Shown here piece by piece: positions 12,162 through 26,838 of a DNA stretch of 64,000 nt. Under the pieces are notes generated by a model that was not told the DNA's origin, searched no databases, and saw only the letters and a program-made list of their open reading frames with translations. This DNA comes from Candidatus Poseidoniaceae archaeon (lineage in GTDB: Archaea > Thermoplasmatota > Poseidoniia > Poseidoniales > Poseidoniaceae), in NCBI GenBank assembly GCA_024958795.1, contig JANXHP010000008.1, forward strand, positions 2,698 through 66,697, in the 5' to 3' direction. Numbering within the stretch: position 1 is the stretch's first letter; each line of letters opens with the position of its first letter. The translations under genes and the position numbers were made by a program.

Positions 12162-12806
12162 TCAATCATTTCTTAATGATTCAGCAGCCCAATTCATCAG
12201 ATTTGATTCTGCTCTGCTAAGGTGTTCTTGCAGTGTTGAGCGAGGAATATTCAAATTCTCAGATAGTTGTCTCAAACTAGTCTTTTTCGGAGTTTGATAA
12301 TAACCAACAGAACAAGCTGCAATTACACATTCTCTCTGTTTATCTGTTAGCAGTTGCTCTAATGCCCCTTCATCATCAACCATTTCGACGACCTTCACCT
12401 GATCAGGAGGTAAAAACAACTTACAGATTTTCAAGAAATTAGAAATCCCTTGCGGCACCCCTCTAACGGTAATTTCCATTCCATCGCCTCCGAATGAGTA
12501 AGGGGGAATGATGTGAATATCTTGAAAATCTATTGCTGCTACTGAAAGTGGATGAGAATTCCAAATAACAAGGTGACCGGCTCCGTTTTTTTCCAAATAA
12601 GAATCCTCAAATGTCAAAAATGGAATCTCATTCAAATCATCTGGCCCCTTCCCATCTTTGAATGTTGGAATAATTAATTGGCGTACCCCTTTTTCACTAA
12701 CGTCTAAATGCGCAACAACTTCCAATTTAGTGGCTATTTTTGCAATAGAAGCATATTCTGAAGTTGCAATGCTTTGTGCATTCCAAGAGATATGTGCTTC
12801 TCTCAT
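12162..12806 (-). CDS. Bat-type (HTH_10) transcriptional regulator
   Basis: The C-terminal segment LTDKQRECVIAACSVGYYQTPKKTSLRQLSENLNIPRSTLQEHLSRAESNLMNW is the characteristic HTH_10 / bacterio-opsin-activator-type HTH. Confidence 0.8.
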   Translation of the reverse strand: MREAHISWNAQSIATSEYASIAKIATKLEVVAHLDVSEKGVRQLIIPTFKDGKGPDDLNEIPFLTFEDSYLEKNGAGHLVIWNSHPLSVAAIDFQDIHIIPPYSFGGDGMEITVRGVPQGISNFLKICKLFLPPDQVKVVEMVDDEGALEQLLTDKQRECVIAACSVGYYQTPKKTSLRQLSENLNIPRSTLQEHLSRAESNLMNWAAESLRND

Positions 12807-12938: not shown

Positions 12939-13721
12939 ATGTCAATTGTTGATTTGAATGGTATTAGCAGGATTTATGGTGAAGGCGATACCGAAGTTCG
13001 TGCTCTTGATGATATTGATTTATTGATTGAACCAGGGGAGATAGTTGCGCTATTAGGTCCATCGGGCTCTGGAAAAACAACATTGTTGAACATTATTGCT
13101 GCACTGGACCCCCCTACCTCTGGAAATTATTCCTTCACAGGTGAGGAAGTGGAATTAGGTGATGTCGGAAAAATGACAGATTTCAGGAGGAAAAACATTG
13201 GATATATATTTCAATTTTTCAATCTAGTAGGTGACTTAACTGCACTGGAAAACACCATGCTGGTACAAGACTTATCTGGTAAAAGAGATAAAAAGTATGC
13301 ACTAGAATTACTGGAAAGGGTAGGCCTCAAAGGACTTGAAGATAGGTTTCCTTCTCAAATGAGCGGAGGGCAAAGGCAAAGAGTAGCAATCGCCAGAGCA
13401 CTTTCTAGTCGTCCAAAAATGATGCTAGGAGATGAACTAACAGGCAACCTCGACTCGGAGACATCAATTCAAGTGCTGGACACGCTAATTGATATTTGCC
13501 GGAAAGAAGGAATGACAGTATTATTCGTCACTCACGATCGCAGTCTAACCAAATATGCCACTAGAGTCTTACAACTTGAAAGCGGAAAAATAATTAGTGA
13601 CGAAATTGGTGGTCTTTCGACGATTAGCGGCCAAGTTGAAAGTGCTGCAAAAGATGTAATTACTGGTGCAAAAAAAATCGCTGGAAAAATTTTAGAATTT
13701 GCCGATGAAGTCATTAGGTGA
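12939..13721 (+). CDS. ABC transporter ATP-binding protein (MacB/LolD/FtsE-like)
   Basis: Walker A is GPSGSGKTT, the ABC signature is MSGGQRQRVAIARAL, and Walker B is MMLGDELT. Confidence 0.95.
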   Translation: MSIVDLNGISRIYGEGDTEVRALDDIDLLIEPGEIVALLGPSGSGKTTLLNIIAALDPPTSGNYSFTGEEVELGDVGKMTDFRRKNIGYIFQFFNLVGDLTALENTMLVQDLSGKRDKKYALELLERVGLKGLEDRFPSQMSGGQRQRVAIARALSSRPKMMLGDELTGNLDSETSIQVLDTLIDICRKEGMTVLFVTHDRSLTKYATRVLQLESGKIISDEIGGLSTISGQVESAAKDVITGAKKIAGKILEFADEVIR

Positions 13722-16105
13722 GCAAAGTGAGTAGACTCTTACTAACAAGATTAAGGCGCAGTATGATGCGCTCTAAGTTACGTGTATTCACAGTGGTAGC
13801 CATAGTGGCATTAGCCACTTATACAGGCGTAACGTTATCTGAACATGGAAGAAATGCTGGATATGTTTACGAAGATTTCTATGCTGAAACAAATCTATCC
13901 GATTTGATAGTTTCAGATGTGGAACAACCTCGAAGCAACTTCACACGACTATGCGATTCACATTCCGATTGGACTTGTGAATCAAGATTGACTTTACAAG
14001 GACAGACTTATCATTCTTCAACTGATGAAAATAAATGGATTCAATCCCTTTGGCACGGAATGGAACTTGGAGAGGTATCGGGACTGTATCTTATTGAAGG
14101 ATCACTCACTCCAGGTGATGGTGAAATCGTTATTGATGCCCATGCTGCAGAAGGATTGAATTACAAAATAGGTGACCAAGTCCGAATTATTGCTGGCAAT
14201 GGTACAAATGAATTGACTATTATTGGAATCGCAAATTCTCCAATGCACTTATGGTATGCTGCTGAGGGAACTTTGTTCCCCAGTAATGATGGGTACGTCG
14301 TTGGGTATCTTGATGCAGAATATCTGGCGAGCATTGGAGGCTTTGACCCTCTAACAAGGAATGAGATGTACATTGATATGCCAGGAAATCCATCATTTGA
14401 TTTATCAGAAACACTTGACTTGGATGAAGGAGCGGAATTAACTATTTCTCGATTGGAATTAGTTGAGGAGATGCGTTCTTTAGATATGGAAGGAGATGTT
14501 GTTGATAGGAGTGGAATGACAAGTCCAGAACTTCTTAGAATCGATTTAGAAGGTACAAAAAAATCATCACCATTTATTCTAACTGTATTACTTCTTGTTT
14601 CCGGATTGATGATTGCGATTTCAATTAGCCGATTAGTAAAATCACATTCACAAGAAATCGCAGTACTTCGCACCATAGGAGCATCTGGTAAGGACATAAT
14701 GACCGGATATCTATTGATACCATTATTCCTCGGAATACCAGGAGTGATAATTGGTATTCTTCTTGGAGTTTCACCGATAGGATCTCAAATGATGACAGAA
14801 TTTTATTTTAATTTCTTTGGAATACCAGTAGTAATTGTTAGGCATTATCCAGACCTATTATTGAAAATCGGTCTGGGTAGCATTGTGTTAATCTCGTTAT
14901 TTGGAATAAGGCCTGCATTACGAGCTTCACGCCTTCAGCCATTAGATATTCTAAATCGGACAAGTCAAAAGCCACCATCAAGATTCATGGTCAAAATAAC
15001 TTCTGCATTACCTCCTGGTCCTAGTTTAGCAATACGCTCAACATTTAGAAATCCTTCAAGACTGATTGCTACATTGGTAATGTTATCACTTTCAATGGTA
15101 ATAATGGGTGGTACAATGATGATGCAGGTCGGATTTGAGACGCTGTTCAATGAAACAATGGATGAGCAAGAAAATTGGGATGCTCAAGCATATATGTGGC
15201 CGGCGAATGTTGGAGAAATAGAATCATGGGCTCAACAAAACGCTTCAGATTATGAATTGTTAATACGCAGTAGTGGCAATGCTTCGAATGACCCAAGAAT
15301 TTTCACTATCTATGGCTTGGAAAACATTGTCAGCGACGAATCAGCAATGCATCGTTTCAATATCGTCAAAGGTGAGATACCAACGATTGGACAAAATCCC
15401 CCTCAAGTATTAATCGATGAAGGGATGGCGAGTGAACTTGATTGGGATGTTTCAGATAAGGTGAAAATCTCCCAAGGTTCAGCTGAAGTAGAGGTTGAGG
15501 TGACAGGAATAGTTAGGGAATTAGAGCGTACAATGGTATTCTATAGAACTGATTATGCGCCGATTACCGGTTGGGATGCTAATGGAATAAGATTGACATT
15601 TGATGAAGGTCAACAATTAGACGATGATGTGAGAAGTTTAACATCAGTAGTAATTACCAAAGAAGAATTGCTAACTGGTTTTAGGGAGTTATTAAAGCAA
15701 CAAGCGTCATTAATGATGTCAACATATATGATTGGTGCAATAATGGCAGTTGCAATTCTATTCAATACATTGATGATGAATTTAGCTGAACGAGATAATG
15801 AATTAGCAACATTAAGAGTTCTTGGTGCTAGCGTAAAAGATTTAGCAATAATATTGACAATTGAGCACGCCTTTATCGGTATTATAGGCGGTATTGCAGG
15901 CGTTGCAACATCGATTCTAATGTTCCAAGGAATGGCTTCGGCATTCTCTACTTGGCAATTCTTTATCCCGGTAACTATTGATTTATTAGTAGCAGTGAAG
16001 GTATTATTGTTCATATTAATCGCATCGTTAGCAACAACACCGTTTGGTATGTGGAGAATCAGAAAAATGGACCTTTTGGACGTAGTTTCTCGACACCAAA
16101 ATTAG
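13718..16105 (+). CDS. ABC transporter permease with duplicated FtsX/MacB-type domains (795 aa)
   Basis: The GTG start overlaps the upstream stop (GTGA). There are two blocks, each a large extracytoplasmic domain followed by a 3-TM FtsX-like bundle (LRTIGASGKDI... and LRVLGASVKDL...). Confidence 0.9.
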   Translation: MSKVSRLLLTRLRRSMMRSKLRVFTVVAIVALATYTGVTLSEHGRNAGYVYEDFYAETNLSDLIVSDVEQPRSNFTRLCDSHSDWTCESRLTLQGQTYHSSTDENKWIQSLWHGMELGEVSGLYLIEGSLTPGDGEIVIDAHAAEGLNYKIGDQVRIIAGNGTNELTIIGIANSPMHLWYAAEGTLFPSNDGYVVGYLDAEYLASIGGFDPLTRNEMYIDMPGNPSFDLSETLDLDEGAELTISRLELVEEMRSLDMEGDVVDRSGMTSPELLRIDLEGTKKSSPFILTVLLLVSGLMIAISISRLVKSHSQEIAVLRTIGASGKDIMTGYLLIPLFLGIPGVIIGILLGVSPIGSQMMTEFYFNFFGIPVVIVRHYPDLLLKIGLGSIVLISLFGIRPALRASRLQPLDILNRTSQKPPSRFMVKITSALPPGPSLAIRSTFRNPSRLIATLVMLSLSMVIMGGTMMMQVGFETLFNETMDEQENWDAQAYMWPANVGEIESWAQQNASDYELLIRSSGNASNDPRIFTIYGLENIVSDESAMHRFNIVKGEIPTIGQNPPQVLIDEGMASELDWDVSDKVKISQGSAEVEVEVTGIVRELERTMVFYRTDYAPITGWDANGIRLTFDEGQQLDDDVRSLTSVVITKEELLTGFRELLKQQASLMMSTYMIGAIMAVAILFNTLMMNLAERDNELATLRVLGASVKDLAIILTIEHAFIGIIGGIAGVATSILMFQGMASAFSTWQFFIPVTIDLLVAVKVLLFILIASLATTPFGMWRIRKMDLLDVVSRHQN

Positions 16106-16153
16106 TACTGTTAGAGGAATGTTTCAATAGTTACCACCTGCAGAGGCCAAACT

Positions 16154-17845
16154 ATGGAACCCGGTGCATTGGGCATGACCATTGTTTTTGGTGGTGCATT
16201 TTTCGTTGGTATTTGGGCTATTTTTCTTCGTAAGGGAGCAGATGTAAATGTTCGTCAAGGAATGAGTGCTGAGGGATTGCGTAATGCTAACAATGCACCT
16301 GGCTTTGGACGAGCCAAAAATGAATTTGACCGTAAACTCGCTTTGGTTGAAGAGCGTAGAAGGAGACGTGAAGCAATTGAGAATCGTTTGCAACTAGAAG
16401 AATCAGATCGTATAGCCAAAGAAGAAGCTGAAAGAATTGCTAAACAAGTGACTGAGGAAAGAGAGCAGGCAGAACGTGAGAGAATTGCTGCTGAACAAGA
16501 AGCAGAGCGTCTTCGCTTAGAACAGGAAGAGGAAGAAAGGCTCCGCTTAGAACAAGAAGAAGCAGATAGAATCGCCCGCGAAGAAGAAGAGGCACGTTTG
16601 GCTGAAGAAAGAGAAACCTTGCGTCAACAGGAAATGGCTGATGCGGAAAAGCAGAGATTGAGAGAAATAAAGAAGGCTGCAAAACAGGCTGAAATGGAAT
16701 CTCGTGAAGCAGCACAACGAGCGATGTCTGAATTACAAGAAAGATTAGCGCGTGAAGGTGCTCGTTCATCTGATGTCCAAGTATCTCTAATGTGGAATAA
16801 TTACAATGATTTGGATTTACACATAGTATGTCCAAGTGGTGAACGTATCCATGGTGGGAATAAAATTTCCAATTGTGGTGGCGAACTGGATGTTGATGCC
16901 AATGTAAGGGCTGAAACCAAGAAACCTGTTGAAAATGTTGTTTGGCCGGAAGGTAAAGCACCTGCTGGAGTATACCAAGTCTATGTTCACCATTACAAGA
17001 AGCATGCAAAGCGCAGAACAAGAGATCCAACAAAGTTCCAAATCATTGCTTCAAATGGAGGAGATGTTATGGAATATAATGGTGCATTGACTCACGGAGA
17101 CCCGATTAAGTTAGTATGTGAATTCAAGGTTGCATCTCCTGAGGAGAGAGCTGCTAAGAAGAGAGAACTTGAAGAACAGATATTAGTTGCAAACGCTCTA
17201 GAAAATAAAGAAGAGGAAGAAGAGGAATCCGATTCAGACTCTGAAGAGCAAACAATAGATGCAGATTCTAGTGAAGCGAATGATGAGGTTTCTGAATCAG
17301 ACTCTGAAGGGCAACCTATAGCCGCAACCACGCAGACAATGACCGAATTGCAAAAGCGACTAAAGCGTGAAGATGGTCGTTCTTCTGATGTCCAAGTCTC
17401 TCTAATGTGGAATAATTTCAATGATTTAGACCTGCATGTGATCACTCCAAGTGGCGAAGCATTACACGGTGGAAACAGGAGTTCTGAATGTGGAGGGGAA
17501 CTGGATGTCGATGCCAACGAGAATGCTGAAACCAAGAAACCTGTTGAAAATGTTGTTTGGCCAGAAGGTAAAGCACCTGCAGGAGTATACCAAGTCTATG
17601 TTAACCATTACAAGAAGCACGCTAAGCGCAAAACAAAAGATCCAACAGAATTCCAAGTCATTACTTCAAATGGAGAAGATGTTATGGAATATAATGGTGC
17701 ATTAACTCATGGAGACCCGAAGAAGTTAGTTTGTGAATTCACAGTAGCATCTGCTGAGGAAGAAGACGATGCGGATGATTCTAACCCTGGTGAAATTCCA
17801 GGAATGCCAGATTTAGATGAACTATCCGAACAACTGAAAGATTGA
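16154..17845 (+). CDS. Membrane-tethered protein: N-terminal TM + ER/K charged helix + two tandem DUF2135/YfaP-like modules + acidic tail
   Basis: The TM is GMTIVFGGAFFVGIWAIFL followed by RK. About 145 aa of E/R/K/A/Q repeats follow. Two modules carry SSDVQVSLMWNN(Y/F)NDLDLH..PSGE...CGGELDVDAN...KKPVENVVWPEGKAPAGVYQVYV.HYKKH. The linker is EEEEEESDSDSEE. Confidence 0.85.
   Translation: MEPGALGMTIVFGGAFFVGIWAIFLRKGADVNVRQGMSAEGLRNANNAPGFGRAKNEFDRKLALVEERRRRREAIENRLQLEESDRIAKEEAERIAKQVTEEREQAERERIAAEQEAERLRLEQEEEERLRLEQEEADRIAREEEEARLAEERETLRQQEMADAEKQRLREIKKAAKQAEMESREAAQRAMSELQERLAREGARSSDVQVSLMWNNYNDLDLHIVCPSGERIHGGNKISNCGGELDVDANVRAETKKPVENVVWPEGKAPAGVYQVYVHHYKKHAKRRTRDPTKFQIIASNGGDVMEYNGALTHGDPIKLVCEFKVASPEERAAKKRELEEQILVANALENKEEEEEESDSDSEEQTIDADSSEANDEVSESDSEGQPIAATTQTMTELQKRLKREDGRSSDVQVSLMWNNFNDLDLHVITPSGEALHGGNRSSECGGELDVDANENAETKKPVENVVWPEGKAPAGVYQVYVNHYKKHAKRKTKDPTEFQVITSNGEDVMEYNGALTHGDPKKLVCEFTVASAEEEDDADDSNPGEIPGMPDLDELSEQLKD
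16724..17150 (+). repeat. Intragenic tandem duplication, copy 1 (period 615 nt)
   Basis: It aligns to 17339..17765 without gaps. The core 16910..17004 differs from 17525..17619 at only 3 of 95 positions. Confidence 0.9.
17339..17765 (+). repeat. Intragenic tandem duplication, copy 2
   Basis: See copy 1. Both copies share the same reading frame and the same domain signature. Confidence 0.9.
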
Positions 17846-17876: not shown

Positions 17877-18989
17877 TCAAGATAAAATATCTTGAAGTGT
17901 TCCCTCATCAATAGACTTCTTAATTGAACGAGCGATTCTTCTTCCAGTAGACATGAATGGTTCATTGATATCAGAATATGGAGAACCTCCAACGAATGGA
18001 TTTGAGCCTGCGACTATTCTAGCACTGATTTCAAAGACTTTGAATTCAAGTTGGTCTGTAACAATTGTTTCAAGGCAGAATGGGCCTATCATTCCTTTTG
18101 CACCCTCTTCTAGTTCAAATGATGCTGCAACAGTACCTTCAGCCATTTCAAAAGCACGTGGAAGTAGTGATTCACGAATTACTACAGGTTGGTTACCTGT
18201 TACTACGAATGAAGGTTCTAATCCCTTTTCTCTCAAATCTCGAAGTGAACCTAATTTGTAAAATTCATCAACATTTGCTTCATCCCTTCTGTCCATGCTC
18301 AATAATTCAAGGCGACCTAGATTTTTTCCAGCGTGACTACCTCGGCCTTGAACTTGGAATCCATCACTTGCAGTTGGATCAAAGAAGAAATGAAGATAAT
18401 AACGGCATCCTAATGCATACTCTTGAATTGTAAATTCATCTTCTAAGTCGGCATTTCTGCGGAAATCCCTGTAATCTCTAGCGATGAAATAACCTCTTCC
18501 ACCTTTTGCTCCAGCATATTTGACGATAACAGGGCCATCGATGTCATGAGGGTCATTGTAGACCTTTGGCATAGTACATCCGCCAGCTTCTAACCATTGG
18601 CGCTGTCTTTCTCGACTACTTTCCCAATGTAATATCCCTCTATTACCAAATGTTGGTACTTGTAAAGTTCTAAAATTGGATGAACCAAGATATTCTACAA
18701 GTGAACCATGTGGTATTATCACAACATTTCTTTTGCGAAACCATTCAGCATAATCCAACATTTCTCTATAATCTTCAAGCATTAACCATTCATCAGGTTC
18801 AGCACCAGGGAATGCTTTGTAATATCGACGCCTGTTTTCACCTACTGCAATTCCTAAAGTTTTGAATCCCTCAAGACGAGCACCATGAAGAATTTGTAAC
18901 GAAGAGTGAGAAGCAACCACTCCAATTGTGATTTGACTTGGGTCATAGTCGGCCAGCCATGTAGCCAGTGTATCGGAATCTACGCCCAT
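17877..18989 (-). CDS. purP: 5-formaminoimidazole-4-carboxamide ribonucleotide (FAICAR) synthetase PurP
   Basis: There is a strong match to archaeal PurP: ITIGVVASHSSLQILHGARLEGF, VIVKYAGAKGGRGYFIA, VVIRESLLPRAFEMAEG, MIGPFCLE and FEISARIVAGSNPF. The track ORF extends to 19079, but that N-terminal 30 aa looks non-native, so the Met at 18989 is preferred. Confidence 0.9.
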   Translation of the reverse strand: MGVDSDTLATWLADYDPSQITIGVVASHSSLQILHGARLEGFKTLGIAVGENRRRYYKAFPGAEPDEWLMLEDYREMLDYAEWFRKRNVVIIPHGSLVEYLGSSNFRTLQVPTFGNRGILHWESSRERQRQWLEAGGCTMPKVYNDPHDIDGPVIVKYAGAKGGRGYFIARDYRDFRRNADLEDEFTIQEYALGCRYYLHFFFDPTASDGFQVQGRGSHAGKNLGRLELLSMDRRDEANVDEFYKLGSLRDLREKGLEPSFVVTGNQPVVIRESLLPRAFEMAEGTVAASFELEEGAKGMIGPFCLETIVTDQLEFKVFEISARIVAGSNPFVGGSPYSDINEPFMSTGRRIARSIKKSIDEGTLQDILS

Positions 18990-19169
18990 GTTGAGGGGTT
19001 TAGTATTCCCCCTATATGCGTTATCCCAATTAGAATGTGTAAAAGCAATAATGAAGATAATTATCAATCGCACAATCACTTTCAGTATTTACTTCATCCA
19101 TTTTTCCCACTTCTTGATTCCCATTACAAGTAGGTGTATACTTCAAAGGCTTGAAGGCTATCGCCAACC

Positions 19170-20620: not shown

Positions 20621-21550
20621 TCATTCTTGCTCAAGAATTGATTGTTTTGGACGCTTGATTTCCTTTACCCAGAGCATTATTGCAGGAGTAATTAAGATGA
20701 CCATAATTAGAAACCAAATCACCGCAAACACTGCTGGATTAGATGTTTGTTTGTAGTTTGTTGTTTCTTTTTCATCATCATTAAATTCCATATTTCCAGC
20801 AGTTTCATCGCTATATGAGTGTAGTTGCGGTGAACCATCATTTTCTAAAATGAAAATCAGACGGCCATTCCAACCTTGAAGCATTCCACTGATATTTACT
20901 CCAATTGTGTTAGAGATATTTGAATCACTAAAATCAATTGTGATTGAATCCGTCGCTAAATATTGATGAGTAAAGTTTCTGCTTTCATGTTCAATAGAAT
21001 CAAGTCTCCAGATTGTCAACTTTTGGCCAATTGAATAATTCCAACGGATGATATCATCTTTCAATATTACATCGCTAAGGTTGTTATTTTGTAATCCATC
21101 ATGGCTATCAAGTGATTGATTCAAGTCAAATGCTTGACTAGAACCAGTAAGCAAACCATTACCATCTATTACTATACTTGGAATAAATAATAATCGGAAT
21201 TTATCATCAAATCTAAATTTTGAATAATTTAGGTAAGTATAATCTTCACTTGATGCATGATGTTGAAGAATCACGGTATCTGTTCTGTTAAGAGTCGCTA
21301 AATTGTCTTCGACTATTTGACAAGGTTCACACCAATCTGCTCCAAAATATTCCACAATATGTTCGCTCTCACTTGCTTCGCAATCTAACGAGTGTTGGTA
21401 GCAAGAATAGTCAATATATTGGACTGCAATAATATCACCCTCATCTAAATCGTCTTCACCTTCTGAAGATGTATTTGTAATTGATGTTGATAGTAAAAGG
21501 AATATCGCGGCCCAAAAGAAAACCCATCTCCTATTGCCGGACATTAACAA
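20621..21550 (-). CDS. Extracytoplasmic thioredoxin-fold protein (CxxC) with signal peptide and C-terminal TM anchor
   Basis: The signal peptide is RRWVFFWAAIFLLLSTSITNTSS. The motif YFGADWCEPCQ fits WCxxC. The C-terminal TM is AVFAVIWFLIMVILITPAIMLWV. The gene is divergent from ctaA. Confidence 0.65.
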   Translation of the reverse strand: MLMSGNRRWVFFWAAIFLLLSTSITNTSSEGEDDLDEGDIIAVQYIDYSCYQHSLDCEASESEHIVEYFGADWCEPCQIVEDNLATLNRTDTVILQHHASSEDYTYLNYSKFRFDDKFRLLFIPSIVIDGNGLLTGSSQAFDLNQSLDSHDGLQNNNLSDVILKDDIIRWNYSIGQKLTIWRLDSIEHESRNFTHQYLATDSITIDFSDSNISNTIGVNISGMLQGWNGRLIFILENDGSPQLHSYSDETAGNMEFNDDEKETTNYKQTSNPAVFAVIWFLIMVILITPAIMLWVKEIKRPKQSILEQE

Positions 21551-23868: not shown

Positions 23869-26838
23869 TCAGTCAAAGAAATCGTCAAATTCATCATCAC
23901 TAATATTTGATTTACGACGGTTTCTTGCAGCAAGAACTCGCTTCAATCTCTTTCTCTTCTTCAGAATGAGAGGGATCATAATAATGCTCAAAAACAGAAT
24001 GGTAATGAGTGTTCCACCAGAATACAGGAATATCTCTTTTTGCATTGATTCTTGTAAATCTCCAAGCCATGGAACTCCTAATGGTGGTTCTTCAGGTGGT
24101 GGAGGTACTGGGACAATATGTTGGTTATATTGCCACCAAAGGTCTTCGATGTGAACTCTATTGACATTATTAGATGGGAATATAGCCATAGTATTTTCAT
24201 TACCTACCCAATCAATAGGTGCAAGGATGTAATAGTATGTCCTGTATGGTCTTATCCCATCAATTTCTGTTCCACTTTGGTTGAAATATCCAGTTTCACC
24301 AGGGATTGCTTGGATGTCGCTAACGATTGGTGTAATGAATCTTAAATCTACATTAATTGGACGTGAATCAACTCTGTACAAATTCCAAGTAACAGGGCCG
24401 CTCGCTTCATGTTCAGGCCATATCCAAGTCAAATTTACTTCGTAGCACATATTCCATTCACGTGAAATATCATAACAATCACTTGAGTTAGTGAAATCGT
24501 AACTAGAAACAAAATTGGAAATTGAAACAGATGGTGGAATGGCATCACCACAAATAAGCCCAGGATTTCCATCCATATTCCTTACAATATTGGCTTTTTG
24601 ATAGTCAGGTATTCCAGCTCTATCAGCAGGAATAATTGCGTATGAAGCACATTCCCCGGTCTCCAAAGGAATAGGGTCCAGCCAATTATCTATGTTGACT
24701 GGAATGGTTGTAATAATTGTGTCAAGAGTCAACTCATCCCAGACAAGCGGGTTAATCCCATCACCTGGGTCTGGGAAATAAGTAGAACTGGTTTCGGAAC
24801 CAAGAATTTTGTATATTTTCCAGCCACCAAGATATGGATTTGATAAATCTCCTGAAGAAGTCCAATTCAATTTTATTTGTCCATCTTTGAGGAGAGTATT
24901 GTCAACATTTCCTAAAGTAACATTTGCTTCTGGCAATTCTCCAACGATCAAAATCGCTCCGTTGGAAGTCATTTTTAGAGTAAATGTTCCATCTTCATTA
25001 TTGGTTAATTCATTAGGTCCTTCAACATATGACCAAATATTATGGCTAAGTGAATTAATCTGTCGAACATCAACAGTTGAGAGGTTGATATTCGAGGGTA
25101 ATATTGCACTCATGTTGAGTGTAATCTCCATTGATTCCATTCCAACATCATCAGAACCGTCTAAGGTCGATAGGATCTCAAAAGACATCAACCGCAATGG
25201 TTCTTGACCTGACCCTACGCCATAATTTGTCCCCAAAACCGGTAGTATTGATTCTGTTTCAAGATACGCTTCAGAACGAGTAATAGCGCTTCCAGTATAA
25301 TATGGCTCATCACTGACATCAATATATTCGAATATTGTAATATATTCGTGAACGGTATCAATTGTTCCAAATGAATCTATTATTCTAAGCGTGATAGTGT
25401 GGTCTCCCAATCCCAAAACACTTCCACTGATGTTAAGGATTTGACCATATCCTAAGTTGATGATTCCCGATACCCACCATGAAAAATTTAGGGGCTCAGC
25501 AGCTGTACTTCCAAATCTTGCAACCATCTCAATATCGTCACCAGTATTGTATCTGCCGTTGAAGTTTTCTTGATATATTTCTGCGTGTATATCGCCTGCA
25601 AGTATATCGGCTTGCTCACTGATGATATTATTTGAAGTACTTTGATCTGGACCTCCAAGATATGTATTTGGAGCAGAAATCTTTAGGATTCTGTTGTCCC
25701 CAGTTACAGTGAGGTTAAATTTACAAATTTGGCTTTCGCTTGGCATTAGTGAAATTACTTGACAGTGTTCTTCCATTTTTAATTCACTGCCTATGTCAAA
25801 TACCTCAAACGAAACAAAGAAATTATGAACTGTTTTATTGCCTAAATTTATTACTTCTGAATATACCATTTCATTACCAAAGTAATAGTTTTCTGAAGAA
25901 GAATCATGCCCAGGAGACATTACCGACACACTAACATCTATTGTATCATCAATAATGATGAGCGTTGAAGTAATGTCATTGAAATCATTTAGGTCACTAT
26001 AAGGTGTGCCAGTGCTGTTATACAAGCCCCATATTAGAACATATGTCCCTTCAAATGGATAATTGAAAACAGGCATTTGGTGTTCAAAGGGCATCATATT
26101 ACCTCCAGAGGTCAAACCGGTGTTGAAAGAGTATGCTTCTGCAAGCATTACAGATTCGGCTTGATCCCATAATTGCCACCCAATGGTTGCATTGAAATTA
26201 CATGAACCACAACTGTTGACAGTACCCTTTGCTTTAAGGGAATAATCAGTGTTTGAATTCAATATTTTTTGACCGTCATAGGTGGAAAGCCCTTCTATGT
26301 CATTATGCGGACTCCACGATTCGTCAACAACCAAATCAACAAACGATTGAGTAAGGTTGAAATTAAATTTGAAGAGATCATTACTCGAAAATTGGTCAGA
26401 TTCATCAAATGAATAAACTACAGTGATTATTCCATCTGCACCTGAAGATGGATTCCAATTATTGGTAGATGTGACATTTGAGTACTGGCCTGGAGCAATA
26501 TTTGTTAAGAAAAATTGACCTCTATCATCAAAGGTTGATTTACAAACAGAACCATCTACGTCGCCGATACAAACATGCCAACGCATTACTCTGTTCAAAC
26601 CAGCAGCTGTCAAACCTTGATTCTTTATTTGTGCAGTAAATGAAACTGAGTCAAAATATGAAACCCAATTATCCTTTTCTGGTGAAATAGTATCGGTAAT
26701 TGCCAAATCACCAGTAACAGAAGCACTCGCTCCTGGCAGAGTTGCTAGACCTCCAAGTGAAGAAATAAGAAGTAATAATACGAGGAACAAACTACTACTT
26801 TTGGCCCTGTATTGATATGGCTCGCGCTGCGACATCAT
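23869..26838 (-). CDS. Large (989 aa) secreted surface protein with C-terminal TM anchor and basic cytoplasmic tail
   Basis: The signal peptide is SSLFLVLLLLISSLGGLATLPGASA. The beta-rich sequence contains many N-x-S/T sequons. A PPPPEEPP stalk precedes the TM (LITILFLSIIMIPLIL) and the tail KKRKRLKRVLAARNRRK. Confidence 0.75.
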   Translation of the reverse strand: MMSQREPYQYRAKSSSLFLVLLLLISSLGGLATLPGASASVTGDLAITDTISPEKDNWVSYFDSVSFTAQIKNQGLTAAGLNRVMRWHVCIGDVDGSVCKSTFDDRGQFFLTNIAPGQYSNVTSTNNWNPSSGADGIITVVYSFDESDQFSSNDLFKFNFNLTQSFVDLVVDESWSPHNDIEGLSTYDGQKILNSNTDYSLKAKGTVNSCGSCNFNATIGWQLWDQAESVMLAEAYSFNTGLTSGGNMMPFEHQMPVFNYPFEGTYVLIWGLYNSTGTPYSDLNDFNDITSTLIIIDDTIDVSVSVMSPGHDSSSENYYFGNEMVYSEVINLGNKTVHNFFVSFEVFDIGSELKMEEHCQVISLMPSESQICKFNLTVTGDNRILKISAPNTYLGGPDQSTSNNIISEQADILAGDIHAEIYQENFNGRYNTGDDIEMVARFGSTAAEPLNFSWWVSGIINLGYGQILNISGSVLGLGDHTITLRIIDSFGTIDTVHEYITIFEYIDVSDEPYYTGSAITRSEAYLETESILPVLGTNYGVGSGQEPLRLMSFEILSTLDGSDDVGMESMEITLNMSAILPSNINLSTVDVRQINSLSHNIWSYVEGPNELTNNEDGTFTLKMTSNGAILIVGELPEANVTLGNVDNTLLKDGQIKLNWTSSGDLSNPYLGGWKIYKILGSETSSTYFPDPGDGINPLVWDELTLDTIITTIPVNIDNWLDPIPLETGECASYAIIPADRAGIPDYQKANIVRNMDGNPGLICGDAIPPSVSISNFVSSYDFTNSSDCYDISREWNMCYEVNLTWIWPEHEASGPVTWNLYRVDSRPINVDLRFITPIVSDIQAIPGETGYFNQSGTEIDGIRPYRTYYYILAPIDWVGNENTMAIFPSNNVNRVHIEDLWWQYNQHIVPVPPPPEEPPLGVPWLGDLQESMQKEIFLYSGGTLITILFLSIIMIPLILKKRKRLKRVLAARNRRKSNISDDEFDDFFD

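What the first reader, a model, noticed from the sequence alone, without database searches (positions are those of the whole stretch)
16154..17845. Membrane-tethered ER/K-helix protein carrying two tandem DUF2135/YfaP-like modules, downstream of the MacB-type ABC transporter
The sequence shows the following parts in order:
- One N-terminal TM helix (GMTIVFGGAFFVGIWAIFL) followed by RK. By the positive-inside rule this places the remaining ~535 aa in the cytoplasm.
- About 145 aa composed almost only of E, R, K, A, Q and L (EERRRRREAIENRLQLEESDRIAKEEAERIAKQ...RLRLEQEEEERLRLEQEEADRIAREEEEARLAEERE...). This is the composition of ER/K single alpha-helices, which act as rigid spacers in eukaryotic myosins.
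- Two ~125-aa modules with the signature SSDVQVSLMWNN(Y/F)NDLDLH..PSGE..HGGN...CGGELDVDAN...KKPVENVVWPEGKAPAGVYQVYV.HYKKH.
- A poly-acidic linker (EEEEEESDSDSEE) between the modules, and an acidic tail.

The module signature (L.W...DLDLHV..P.GE....GG.L..D....PE....G.Y.V.V..Y) matches my recollection of the function-unknown DUF2135 domain. That domain is found in YfaP and at the C-termini of vWA/VIT proteins. I do not know of a described archaeal protein with this TM + ER/K stalk + double-module layout. Its start is 48 nt after the ABC permease stop, which suggests co-transcription.
Basis: partly seen in the sequence, partly recalled or inferred. Interest (0 to 1): 0.72.

Follow-up and report, generated by a model that had tools for sequence, protein, structure and literature searches.

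The report
Membrane-tethered helical stalk with DUF2135 modules
This is a real, strongly conserved gene of the abundant marine Group II archaea (Poseidoniales): a membrane-anchored protein that most likely holds two copies of an uncharacterised beta-sandwich domain (DUF2135/YfaP-like) on a long, highly charged single helix inside the cell, and it is not functionally tied to the neighbouring ABC transporter.

Summary
ORF 16154-17845 (+) encodes 563 aa in this order: N-terminal TM helix, a roughly 140-150-aa E/R/A/L/Q/K region, two modules 82% identical over a 141-aa alignment, a poly-acidic linker and an acidic tail.

- **Domain:** Pfam DUF2135 scores above its cutoff. E. coli YfaP aligns to the module (hhalign 96.9%).
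- **Charged region:** it has no heptad seam. AlphaFold2 models one continuous helix (residues 51-200, about 22 nm).
- **Topology:** a K/R-free N-tail with K/R after the TM, across all 75 loci whose start could be examined, supports the bulk of the protein being cytoplasmic.
- **Transporter link: refuted.** Only 17 of 77 Poseidoniales loci carry the ABC/FtsX pair upstream. A TATA-like element lies 33-36 nt before the start codon in at least 70 of 75 loci, whatever the upstream gene.
- **Conservation:** the two-module architecture is present in 77 of the 80 Poseidoniales loci kept, out of 253 matching stretches in species-representative genomes, at one syntenic position. Module identity is 77%, close to PurP and RpoK.
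- **Fold:** a beta-sandwich with no significant PDB match. It is only remotely related to subtilase C-terminal, P-domain and PPC jelly rolls.

Function is unknown. My best model is a cytoplasmic spacer-and-binding-module tether. I rate it a new architectural variant of a known uncharacterised domain family, of moderate interest.

The parts
16119..16130 (+). Conserved upstream element ATGTTTCAATAG, which contains a TATA-like octamer TTTCAATA centred about 28 nt before the ATG. I read it as the gene's own promoter for a leaderless or near-leaderless mRNA.
   Evidence: The motif ATG-N-TT-C-AA (or ATGG[AT]AATAA) lies 33-36 nt before the TM-proximal ATG in 70 of 75 Poseidoniales loci. The other 5 loci carry one-base variants at -33. 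This holds whether the upstream gene is FtsX, HTH_10 or the DeoC-type aldolase. The exact 12-mer occurs only once in the 64-kb window. The promoter reading is an inference from the archaeal TATA consensus.
16154..17845 (+). Complete coding sequence, 563 aa plus stop
   Evidence: Full-length homologues cover 95-100% of the query.
16160..16231 (+). N-terminal transmembrane helix (residues about 3-26), preceded by a K/R-free acidic N-tail (MEPGALG) and followed by RK
   Evidence: AF2 helix over residues 3-26. Charge-bias analysis.
16229..16342 (+). Conserved juxtamembrane segment (residues 26-63; R..A.VN.R.GM.AEGL....FG..K...DRKL), modelled with low confidence
   Evidence: Invariant columns in alignment A1. 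Mean pairwise identity is 64%, against 53% for the stalk. pLDDT is below 50 for residues 26-51.
16304..16753 (+). ER/K-type charged helix (residues 51-200), about 22 nm long if fully helical, acting as a stalk or spacer
   Evidence: AF2 models a continuous helix over residues 51-200, with pLDDT 78-91 over residues about 61-190. There is no heptad periodicity. Stalk length is held to 118-163 aa in 115 homologues.
16766..17134 (+). DUF2135/YfaP-like beta-sandwich module 1 (residues 205-327), preceded by the conserved helix MSELQERLAREGA (191-203)
   Evidence: Pfam PF09906. AF2 model with pLDDT 87.2 and pTM 0.84. hhalign to E. coli YfaP. 79-81% identity across lineages.
17135..17338 (+). Inter-module linker (residues 328-395): a short helix followed by a disordered poly-acidic stretch. 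In most other lineages this position holds a second 68-72-aa ER/K helix.
   Evidence: AF2 models a helix over residues 329-364, and pLDDT is below 50 for residues 362-396. Alignment A1. Linker-2 lengths.
17381..17749 (+). DUF2135/YfaP-like beta-sandwich module 2 (residues 410-532), preceded by the helix MTELQKRLKRED
   Evidence: It is about 70% identical to modules of other lineages, so it is more diverged than module 1.
17750..17842 (+). Acidic C-terminal tail ending in the short motif IPGMPDLDELSEQL, which is conserved as LPxAPDLDxL in several lineages
   Evidence: Alignment A1. AF2 models a short helix over residues 554-562 within an otherwise disordered tail.
12939..16105 (+). Upstream ABC ATPase (12939-13721) and FtsX/MacB_PCD permease (13718-16105). 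They are neighbours, not part of the feature.
   Evidence: Pfam and NCBIfam. The pair is present upstream of the gene in only 17 of 77 loci.
12162..12806 (-). HTH_10 (bacterio-opsin-activator-type) regulator. It is the more frequent divergent neighbour, and a functional link is untested.
   Evidence: Pfam PF04967, E = 2.2e-17. It lies upstream in 55 of 77 loci.

Best explanation
The gene encodes a single-pass membrane protein found across the order Poseidoniales (Marine Group II archaea).

**Proposed arrangement**
- A very short acidic N-tail faces outward, and the remaining roughly 535 residues lie in the cytoplasm.
- After a conserved juxtamembrane segment comes a helix of about 150 residues. 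It is highly charged (ER/K-type) and has no hydrophobic seam, so it most likely behaves as a stable single alpha-helix, that is, a semi-rigid spacer of about 20 nm.
- The helix carries two copies of a roughly 125-aa beta-sandwich module with a short leading helix. The module belongs to the DUF2135/YfaP family and is remotely related to the Ca2+-stabilised jelly-roll domains at the C-termini of subtilases (P-domain/PPC type).
- An acidic tail with a short linear motif follows.

**Proposed mechanism (inferred, not shown)**
The modules are binding modules. Their invariant Asp/Asn/Glu cluster (DLDL, LDVDxN, EN) would hold a divalent cation. Their conserved surface, which includes a basic loop HHYKKHxKRR seen in the Poseidoniales orthologues aligned here, would hold a conserved cytoplasmic partner or polyanion. 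The stalk fixes the distance between that partner and the membrane, making the protein a membrane tether or ruler.

**Transcription**
The gene has its own TATA-like promoter, probably giving a leaderless mRNA. It is independent of the ABC transporter that happens to lie upstream in this genome.
For: **Shown by tool results**
- ORF and architecture.
- DUF2135 membership.
- Module fold, a helix plus a beta-sandwich, with pLDDT 87.
- Continuous helix over residues 51-200.
- No heptad periodicity, low a/d occupancy and a high density of i/i+4 salt-bridge pairs.
- K/R-free N-tail with K/R after the TM in all archaeal members with an N-terminal TM and in all 75 loci.
- Sequon density of 0.18 per 100 aa and 14% K+R, like the cytoplasmic neighbours. 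The two putative surface ORFs in the same window have 1.6-2.9 sequons per 100 aa and 5-6% K+R.
- Module forms without any TM or signal peptide exist: P0051-P0056, and P0061, which is fused to a double zinc ribbon.
- Median module identity is 77% over 69 distant genomes. The comparison values are PurP 84%, RpoK 86%, FtsX 35% and the surface ORF309 34%.
- Stalk and linker lengths are held within narrow ranges.
- The conserved -35 element is independent of the upstream gene.
- The transporter is absent from 60 of 77 loci.
- Remote similarity to subtilase C-terminal jelly rolls, P_proprotein and PPC.

**From the literature**
SAH domains are described as semi-flexible linkers in prokaryotic and eukaryotic proteins (PMC5378345 abstract).
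Against: - No ligand or partner is identified, and function is not shown for any DUF2135 protein (no papers).
- In bacteria the domain is mostly extracytoplasmic. E. coli YfaP has a signal peptide. Co-occurring domains include OmpA, PD40, C-type lectin and CarboxypepD_reg. Members with GYF_2 or a Zn-ribbon before the TM carry K/R on the N side.
- A Ca2+-type acidic cluster is more typical of extracellular domains.
- In some Poseidonia lineages the conserved upstream ATG is in frame. That would add an Arg-containing N-extension (MFQVVVRRG...) and weaken the charge-bias argument there.
- A monomer AF2 model cannot distinguish a single helix from an oligomeric bundle.
- Module composition does not differ clearly between the predicted-inside and predicted-outside groups.
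- The cation-binding role of the acidic cluster was not examined on coordinates.
Confidence: 0.5

Rival explanations
1. Same protein, opposite topology. The TM is a signal-anchor and the stalk and modules are outside the cell. The roughly 22-nm helix would then span the space between the membrane and the surface layer, as TolA domain II spans the periplasm. It would present Ca2+-binding DUF2135 modules to the S-layer, to glycans or to external ligands.
For: - The domain family is predominantly extracytoplasmic in bacteria. YfaP has a signal peptide. Co-occurring domains include OmpA, PD40, Lectin_C, CarboxypepD_reg, NPCBM and SpaA. There are 32 cluster representatives with K/R on the N side of the TM.
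- The invariant D/N/E cluster and the relationship to Ca2+-binding subtilase jelly rolls fit an extracellular setting.
- The stalk length is comparable with archaeal pseudo-periplasm widths (my own knowledge).
Against: - The N-tail has no K/R and at least one acidic residue, and K/R immediately follow the TM (RK, RR, then RRRRR at residues 68-72), in every locus. This is the opposite of a Sec signal or signal-anchor.
- The whole protein has one N-X-S/T sequon, against 16 and 9 in the two putative surface proteins of the window.
- K/R content is cytoplasm-like.
- Conservation is at housekeeping level, unlike the surface ORFs.
- The cysteines neither co-vary nor persist, so there is no disulfide signature.
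Confidence: 0.2
2. One reading: the protein is an accessory subunit or substrate adaptor of the upstream MacB/LolCDE-type ABC transporter, co-transcribed with it.
For: Same strand, 48-nt gap, and no obvious T-rich or hairpin terminator after the permease gene. The arrangement recurs in 17 loci from at least two divergent lineages, with FtsX 93% and about 35% identical to the window's.
Against: - 60 of 77 loci lack the transporter, although the gene and its other flanking genes stay in place. This includes relatives of 85-90% identity.
- The gene's own conserved promoter-like element is retained between the permease stop and the ATG.
- The transporter evolves much faster than the modules (FtsX 35% against 77%).
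Confidence: 0.05
3. The charged region is an oligomeric coiled coil or helical bundle, not a single helix, so the protein is a dimeric or trimeric fibrous membrane protein.
For: The region contains 16% hydrophobic residues and 16% Ala. Mean helical hydrophobic moment is 0.78, between the Myo10 SAH (0.40) and tropomyosin (1.06). Many prokaryotic E/K/A-rich stalks are oligomeric (my own knowledge).
Against: Hydrophobic residues have no 3.5-residue periodicity (power 0.07 against 1.68 for tropomyosin). The strongest period is no better than in shuffles (203 of 1000 reach it). Best heptad a/d occupancy is 0.29 on average and 0.38 at most, the same as the Myo10 SAH control and far below coiled-coil controls.
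Confidence: 0.2

Closest known systems
E. coli YfaP / Pfam DUF2135 (PF09906)
   Same: The module is homologous to the C-terminal part of YfaP. hhalign gives 96.9% probability, E = 1.7e-10 and 32% identity over 75 columns, sharing W...DLDLHV.TP.GE....G.LD.D....PE....G.YQVY..YY. Pfam PF09906 scores above its cutoff. Function is unknown for both.
   Different: - YfaP is a 258-aa periplasmic protein with a signal peptide and one module. It lies in the yfaA-yfaT-yfaS-yfaQ-yfaP alpha-2-macroglobulin cluster.
- This protein has an N-out/C-in anchor, a 150-aa charged helix and two modules, and it has no such neighbours.
- The Pfam model (48 positions) matches only about 22 residues of the roughly 125-aa module. 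It recognises only 6 of 101 family representatives at E <= 1e-4.
C-terminal beta-jelly-roll domains of subtilases (KP-43 1wmd, SubHal 5fax, Tk-SP 3afg); Pfam P_proprotein (PF01483) and PPC (PF04151)
   Same: Shared strand motifs: (I/V)SL.W....NDLDL.(V/I)..P.G and ...VEN......G.Y.V.V..Y. The family profile hits these chains at E = 0.002-0.03. Other family members hit P_proprotein (down to 1.8e-8) and PPC (1.8e-8). The fervidolysin sandwich domain is among the best Foldseek hits (probability 0.80).
   Different: Similarity is marginal. No Foldseek PDB match reaches E <= 1e-3, and TM-scores are at most 0.42. No protease domain is attached, the context is cytoplasmic and membrane-tethered, and the Poseidoniales orthologues aligned here carry the basic loop KKHxKRR.
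ER/K single alpha-helix (SAH) domains of myosin-6/-10, caldesmon and similar proteins
   Same: Composition dominated by E, R, K, A and Q. High density of opposite charges at i/i+4 (0.24, against 0.34 for the Myo10 SAH control and 0.12 for tropomyosin). No heptad seam, and a long uninterrupted predicted helix. SAHs act as semi-flexible spacers (PMC5378345).
   Different: The region is less pure, with 54% charged residues plus 16% Ala and 16% hydrophobic, and it is R-rich not K-rich. It is attached to a membrane anchor in an archaeon, not to a motor. Monomeric behaviour is untested.
TolA (TM anchor, long charged helical domain II, globular domain III)
   Same: The overall plan is alike: an N-terminal single TM, then a very long Ala/Lys/Glu-rich helix as a spacer, then a C-terminal globular binding domain (my own knowledge of TolA).
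   Different: TolA has a positively charged N-terminus and projects into the periplasm, whereas charge bias here predicts the opposite orientation. There is no sequence relationship, and no TolQ/R-like partners are nearby.

Membership tests
DUF2135 / YfaP family (PF09906) | Score above the Pfam gathering threshold for PF09906 | tested here: met
   E = 2.5e-8 and 34.3 bits against a cutoff of 22, with 2 stretches. The best stretch covers residues 474-495, which is profile positions 1-22 of 48.
DUF2135 / YfaP family (PF09906) | Homology to the founding protein, E. coli YfaP, beyond the short Pfam segment | tested here: met
   hhalign of YfaP against module alignment A2 gives 96.9% probability and E = 1.7e-10. 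YfaP residues 142-217 align to module positions 17-97.
DUF2135 / YfaP family (PF09906) | YfaP-like context: signal peptide, periplasmic location and the alpha-2-macroglobulin (yfaS) gene cluster | tested here: not met
   There is no signal peptide, and the N-tail is K/R-free. The neighbours are HTH_10, ABC/FtsX and PurP, not yfaS/T/A/Q homologues. The protein is therefore a member of the domain family but not a YfaP orthologue.
ER/K single alpha-helix (SAH) | Long helix rich in E/K/R with dense i/i+4 opposite-charge pairs and no heptad hydrophobic seam | tested here: met
   54% of residues are E/R/K/D. The i/i+4 opposite-charge density is 0.24. Best a/d occupancy averages 0.29. Power at period 3.5 is 0.07. 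AF2 models a helix over residues 51-200.
ER/K single alpha-helix (SAH) | Stable, monomeric helix in solution | not testable with these tools
   This needs CD, AUC or SAXS on the isolated segment. A monomer AF2 model says nothing about oligomeric state.
Subtilase C-terminal jelly-roll / P-domain / PPC superfamily | Significant sequence or structural match to a solved member | tested here: inconclusive
   The family profile against PDB gives a best E of 0.002 (5fax) and 0.0058 (1wmd). Foldseek against PDB gives a best E of 0.014, with nothing at or below 1e-3. For the window protein itself, Pfam P_proprotein scores only E = 0.0044, below its cutoff. Other family members score up to 1.8e-8.
Subtilase C-terminal jelly-roll / P-domain / PPC superfamily | Bound Ca2+ coordinated by conserved Asp/Asn residues | not tested
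   Conserved D219, D221, D246, D248, N250, E260 and N261 are compatible with this. Model coordinates could not be inspected, and no metal prediction was run.
MacB/LolCDE-type ABC transporter system (as an accessory component) | Conserved genomic linkage with the ATPase and the FtsX permease | tested here: not met
   The transporter lies upstream in 17 of 77 loci and is absent in 60 of 77, including close relatives.

The most novel reading that the evidence does not exclude
Poseidoniales, among the most abundant archaea of the surface ocean, carry a housekeeping-grade cytoplasmic 'molecular ruler'. It would be a membrane-anchored true single alpha-helix of fixed length (about 20 nm) that positions cation-binding DUF2135 jelly-roll modules at a set distance under the membrane, for example to tether the nucleoid or another large polyanionic assembly. 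That would be a prokaryotic use of the ER/K spacer principle so far characterised mainly in eukaryotic motors. It would also give DUF2135 its first functional handle.
Probability: 0.2. Interest if true: 0.7.

Novelty: new variant of a known kind. Interest (0 to 1): 0.45.

Why it matters
- **An uncharacterised, large family.** The profile built here finds 8482 cluster representatives at 50% identity, in architectures with 1 to 12 copies. The search found no paper mentioning DUF2135. The Pfam model captures only a sixth of the real module.
- **A defined experimental target.** The Poseidoniales protein has a fixed genomic position and housekeeping-level conservation. It has a clear modular plan: anchor, spacer of constrained length, then two modules.
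- **Possible payoff.** If the stalk is a genuine single alpha-helix on the cytoplasmic face, this would be a clean prokaryotic example of a membrane-anchored ER/K spacer. It could also hint at how uncultured Marine Group II archaea organise the space under their membrane.
- **Annotation.** The gene should not be annotated as part of the ABC transporter operon, nor as a YfaP orthologue.

Tried and rejected
- **Sequence search of module 1 against PDB:** no hit even at E <= 10.
- **Foldseek of the module model:** nothing at E <= 1e-3 against PDB or BFVD. The best hits are generic beta-sandwiches: ACE19, PLAT, MmpS5, fervidolysin and EbpB. One phage 'tellurium-resistance-like' protein reached TM 0.53 with E = 0.047.
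- **NCBIfam and PADLOC on the protein:** no family. There is no defence-system context.
- **Literature:** zero papers for 'DUF2135'. The 'YfaP' hits are irrelevant or only lists. The supplements of the archaeal hypothetical-protein survey PMC9258230 mention neither PF09906 nor DUF2135.
- **PF27332.1:** this accession is precomputed for some homologues, but it is not in the local Pfam copy, so I could not identify it.
- **P0040 as a soluble single-module homologue:** rejected. In L082 it is the 3' fragment of a frameshifted gene encoding TM, stalk and one module, at the same syntenic position.
- **Disulfide or Zn site formed by the module cysteines:** rejected. The first Cys is lost in module 2 (T431). 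Across the family the two positions do not co-vary.
- **Composition of modules predicted inside versus outside:** no clear difference, so it is not informative.
- **EF-hand in the tails of some orthologues (P0168):** only sub-threshold matches (E = 0.003-0.007).
- **Sigma-70 promoter and intrinsic-terminator scan:** not informative for an archaeon.
Full report

Yes. ORF 16154..17845 (+) is 563 aa and starts at the first start codon after an in-frame stop. It contains these parts, in order:
- An N-terminal hydrophobic helix, GMTIVFGGAFFVGIWAIFL, followed by RK.
- A 140-aa stretch (residues 64-203) that is 85% E, R, A, L, Q or K, with 1% G+P.
- Two modules that align without gaps and are 82% identical over a 141-aa alignment.
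- An acidic linker, EEEEEESDSDSEE (residues 354-366), and an acidic tail.

The upstream ORFs are an ABC ATPase (12939-13721) and an FtsX/MacB_PCD permease (13718-16105). The permease ends 48 nt before the ATG.

**2. What is the module?**

*Family membership.*
- Pfam DUF2135 (PF09906) matches above its gathering score (E = 2.5e-8, 34.3 bits against 22), once in each module.
- I fetched E. coli yfaP from MG1655. Its product has a signal peptide.
- YfaP residues 142-217 align to my module alignment with hhalign probability 96.9% and E = 1.7e-10.

*Coverage of the Pfam model.*
- The Pfam model has 48 positions, and only positions 1-22 match (KKPVENVVWPEGKAPAGVYQVY).
- The conserved unit is about 125 aa plus a 14-aa leading helix ((S/T)ELQxRLxREGAxS).

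*Size of the family.*
- A profile of 12 module sequences, searched against 1.84 billion cluster representatives, found 8482 proteins at E <= 1e-3 and 5510 at E <= 1e-10.
- Among the best 141 proteins listed, a local domain scan found 1 to 12 copies per protein.
- Only 6 of 101 of these representatives are recognised by the Pfam model at E <= 1e-4.

*Fold.*
- AlphaFold2 on module 1 gives a confident model (pLDDT 87.2, pTM 0.84). It shows a short helix and a sandwich of about ten strands.
- Foldseek finds no significant match in the PDB. The best E is 0.014 and TM-scores are at most 0.42, all to generic sandwiches.
- Foldseek finds no significant match in BFVD either.
- A phmmer search against the PDB finds nothing.

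*Remote relatives.*
- A 28-sequence family profile gives marginal hits to the C-terminal jelly-roll domains of subtilases: SubHal 5fax at E = 0.002, KP-43 1wmd at 0.0058 and Tk-SP 3afg at 0.027. These align the ISL.W...NDLDL..P.G and VEN...G.Y.V motifs.
- Other family members hit Pfam P_proprotein and PPC at up to E = 1.8e-8.
- I conclude that the module is a distant relative of the P-domain/PPC-type jelly roll. It does not profile confidently to any characterised enzyme or binding family.

*Conserved residues.* The nearly invariant residues are acidic or amide side chains (D219, D221, D246, D248, N250, E260, N261) together with W214, P227, G243, W264 and G272. I read the acidic cluster as a divalent-cation site by analogy with subtilase jelly rolls. 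This is inference, because I could not inspect coordinates.

**3. The charged region**
- Hydrophobic residues show no 3.5-residue periodicity. Power is 0.07, against 1.68 for the first 140 residues of tropomyosin. The strongest period is matched by 20% of shuffles.
- The best heptad a/d occupancy in 28-residue windows averages 0.29, with a maximum of 0.38. This equals a myosin-10 SAH control and is far below tropomyosin (0.57 and 0.88) and GCN4 (0.85).
- The density of opposite charges at i/i+4 is 0.24, against 0.34 for Myo10 and 0.12 for tropomyosin.
- Full-length AlphaFold2 with a 12-sequence alignment gives one uninterrupted helix over residues 51-200, with pLDDT about 78-91. At 1.5 Å per residue that is roughly 22 nm.
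- In 115 full-length homologues the stalk is 118-163 aa, mostly 123 or 141. The second linker is 68-72 aa. Sequence identity in the stalk is only about 50%, against about 80% in the modules. Length and composition are therefore conserved more than sequence, as expected of a spacer.
- The coiled-coil refutation criterion is not met. Oligomeric state cannot be settled in silico here.

**4. Topology**

*Evidence for the C-terminal part being inside.*
- In every archaeal member with an N-terminal TM, the N-side flank has no K or R and usually one or two acidic residues. The 15 residues after the TM hold 2-6 K/R.
- All 75 Poseidoniales loci with a recognisable start begin M-(4-8 K/R-free residues containing D or E)-TM. 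This is the reverse of a Sec signal or signal-anchor, and it predicts N-out/C-in.
- The protein has one N-X-S/T sequon (0.18 per 100 aa) and 14% K+R. That resembles PurP, TDO and the ABC ATPase. The two putative surface ORFs in the window have 1.6 and 2.9 sequons per 100 aa and 5-6% K+R.
- Forms with no TM exist: P0051-P0056, checked on contig L083, and P0061, which is fused directly to a double zinc ribbon.

*Evidence against.*
- The domain is clearly extracytoplasmic in many bacteria. Examples are YfaP's signal peptide and co-occurrence with OmpA, PD40, C-type lectin and CarboxypepD_reg. A further example is the set of proteins with GYF_2 or a Zn-ribbon, then a TM, then the module, where K/R lie on the N side of the TM.
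- In some Poseidonia lineages the conserved upstream ATG is in frame, which would add an Arg-bearing extension.

I put the cytoplasmic orientation at roughly three to one.

**5. Genomic context and the transporter**
- A scan of one genome per GTDB species found 253 stretches that encode a relative. The best 80 are all Poseidoniales, and 77 of the 80 carry two modules.
- The gene sits in one syntenic block. The order is DHQ synthase II, DeoC-type aldolase, (HTH_10), (ABC ATPase + FtsX), this gene, then PurP on the opposite strand (convergent). After PurP come Trp dioxygenase, Rpb6/RpoK, ORF309, CtaA and the UbiA-family gene I call CtaB.
- The ABC/FtsX pair is present in only 17 of the 77 loci whose upstream side is covered. 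41 loci have only HTH_10 and 19 have neither.
- Relatives of 85-90% identity (L002, L005, L028) lack the transporter.
- FtsX is 35% identical in distant loci, while the modules are 77% identical.

*The upstream element.*
- A 12-nt element (ATGTTTCAATAG in the window, 16119-16130) lies 33-36 nt before the TM-proximal ATG in 70 of 75 loci. One-base variants occupy the same place in the other five.
- This holds whether the upstream gene is FtsX, HTH_10 or the aldolase.
- The exact 12-mer is unique in the 64-kb window.
- It contains TTTCAATA, one mismatch from the archaeal TATA consensus TTTAAATA as I know it. The octamer is centred about 28 nt before the ATG, the geometry expected for a leaderless mRNA.
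- The gene therefore has its own promoter. The 48-nt gap is a consequence of a two-gene cassette sitting just upstream of that promoter. Read-through from the transporter genes cannot be excluded in this genome, but functional coupling is not supported.

**6. Conservation and evolution**
- Median module identity to the window's module 1 over 69 distant loci is 77%.
- Comparison values are PurP 84%, RpoK 86%, CtaB 71%, TDO 68%, aldolase 63%, ABC ATPase 59%, FtsX 35% and ORF309 34%. This is purifying selection at housekeeping level.
- Within a protein the two modules are often as similar to each other (84-91%) as to their orthologues in other clades. Within one clade, m1 and m2 form separate groups. 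This suggests an old duplication with intermittent gene conversion.
- In the window's lineage, module 2 is more diverged (about 70% to all others) and has lost the first Cys. The second ER/K linker has been replaced by a disordered poly-acidic stretch.

**7. Best explanation and rivals**

*Best model (confidence about 0.5).* The protein is a cytoplasm-facing, membrane-anchored tether. A conserved juxtamembrane segment is followed by an ER/K single-helix spacer of constrained length. The spacer carries two cation-stabilised DUF2135 jelly-roll binding modules, then an acidic tail with a short linear motif (LPxAPDLDxL in several lineages). The protein is expressed from its own promoter.
- Shown: the architecture, the domain family, the absence of a heptad seam, the charge bias, the conservation, the independent promoter-like element and the non-linkage to the transporter.
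- Inferred: single-helix behaviour, cytoplasmic location, cation binding, and the existence of a conserved partner that may be polyanionic, given the HHYKKHxKRR loop.

*Rivals.*
- Opposite topology, with a pseudo-periplasm-spanning stalk (0.2).
- An oligomeric coiled coil (0.2). This is not exclusive of the tether idea.
- An accessory subunit of the transporter (0.05).

**8. Comparison with the known, and novelty**
- The protein is a member of the DUF2135 domain family but not a YfaP orthologue. Its localisation signal, copy number and gene context all differ.
- It works like an SAH-spaced tether and resembles TolA in plan, but with the opposite predicted orientation.
- Public databases already hold hundreds of these proteins as 'hypothetical' or 'YfaP family'. 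I found no publication on the domain or on this architecture.
- I classify it as a new variant of a known, uncharacterised kind.
- Interest is moderate (0.45). It is a well-defined and strongly conserved unknown in a globally abundant archaeal order. Its function remains unknown, and the most eye-catching functional suggestion, coupling to the transporter, is refuted.

Noticed in passing
window 16119-16130 (and the equivalent -33..-36 position in loci L001-L078): The conserved upstream element always keeps an ATG. In the window it forms a 3-codon mini-ORF (ATG TTT CAA TAG, MFQ*), out of frame with the gene. In L004 and L045 it reads MLQ*. In Poseidonia-type loci it is in frame and gene callers extend the protein (MFQVVVRRG...M). 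Promoter (BRE/TATA) or a tiny uORF or leader element: unresolved.
   Followed up: partly
window 16766-17134 versus 17381-17749; proteins P0132, P0185, P0175, P0223, P0158, P0161, P0241, P0242: The two modules of one protein are often as similar to each other (84-91%) as to orthologous modules in other clades. This suggests gene conversion or repeated duplication. Module 2 of the window's lineage evolves faster, at about 70% identity to everything else.
   Followed up: partly
Pfam PF09906 versus residues 205-327 and 410-532: The Pfam DUF2135 model (48 positions) matches only about 22 residues of a roughly 125-aa domain. It detects 6 of 101 diverse family representatives at E <= 1e-4. The family found by a full-module profile is much larger: 8482 representatives at 50% clustering.
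   Followed up: yes
proteins P0244, P0256, P0261, P0264, P0274 (about 930-1090 aa): These are giant relatives. They have the same K/R-free N-tail and TM, two modules, and hundreds of residues of helical sequence built from a repeated motif of the type A(S/T)(T/S)VEELExIE(I/F)xGVNEEQ. No Pfam family matches that repeat.
   Followed up: no
proteins P0248, P0249, P0283, P0282, P0297 (1566-2505 aa): Very long proteins with 9-12 tandem module copies. At least three begin with a signal-peptide-like N-terminus. Their origin was not determined, and the library carries no names.
   Followed up: no
locus L082 7576-8498: P0040 (165 aa, which looked like a soluble single-module protein) is the 3' part of a frameshifted gene encoding TM, a stalk of about 110 aa and one module. 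It sits at the same syntenic position in a long-read assembly with many broken genes. A one-module version of the gene therefore exists in some lineage.
   Followed up: yes
window 20621-21550 (-) and 23869-26838 (-): Two ORFs (309 and 989 aa) with no Pfam hit at E <= 1e-5. Both have a hydrophobic N-terminus, many N-X-S/T sequons (2.9 and 1.6 per 100 aa) and a hydrophobic segment near the C-terminus, so they are likely surface proteins. ORF309 contains a thioredoxin-like WCEPC motif and evolves fast, at about 34% identity across loci.
   Followed up: no
window 17877-19079 (-): The PurP (formate-dependent FAICAR synthetase) ORF as listed starts at a GTG with a hydrophobic extension of about 30 aa. 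Homology begins near residue 35-50, so the true start is probably the internal Met (MGVDSD...). Its stop lies 31 nt from the stop of the studied gene, in convergent orientation.
   Followed up: no
window 12162-12806 (-) and loci L012-L061: An HTH_10 (bacterio-opsin-activator-type) regulator is the divergent upstream neighbour in 55 of 77 loci, usually with a 95-190-nt shared intergenic region. It is fast-evolving, at about 38% identity. Whether it regulates the studied gene was not tested.
   Followed up: no
homologues P0130, P0132-P0141, P0185 and others: A precomputed Pfam accession, PF27332.1, is attached to some full-length homologues. It is absent from the local Pfam copy, so I could not establish what it models.
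   Followed up: partly
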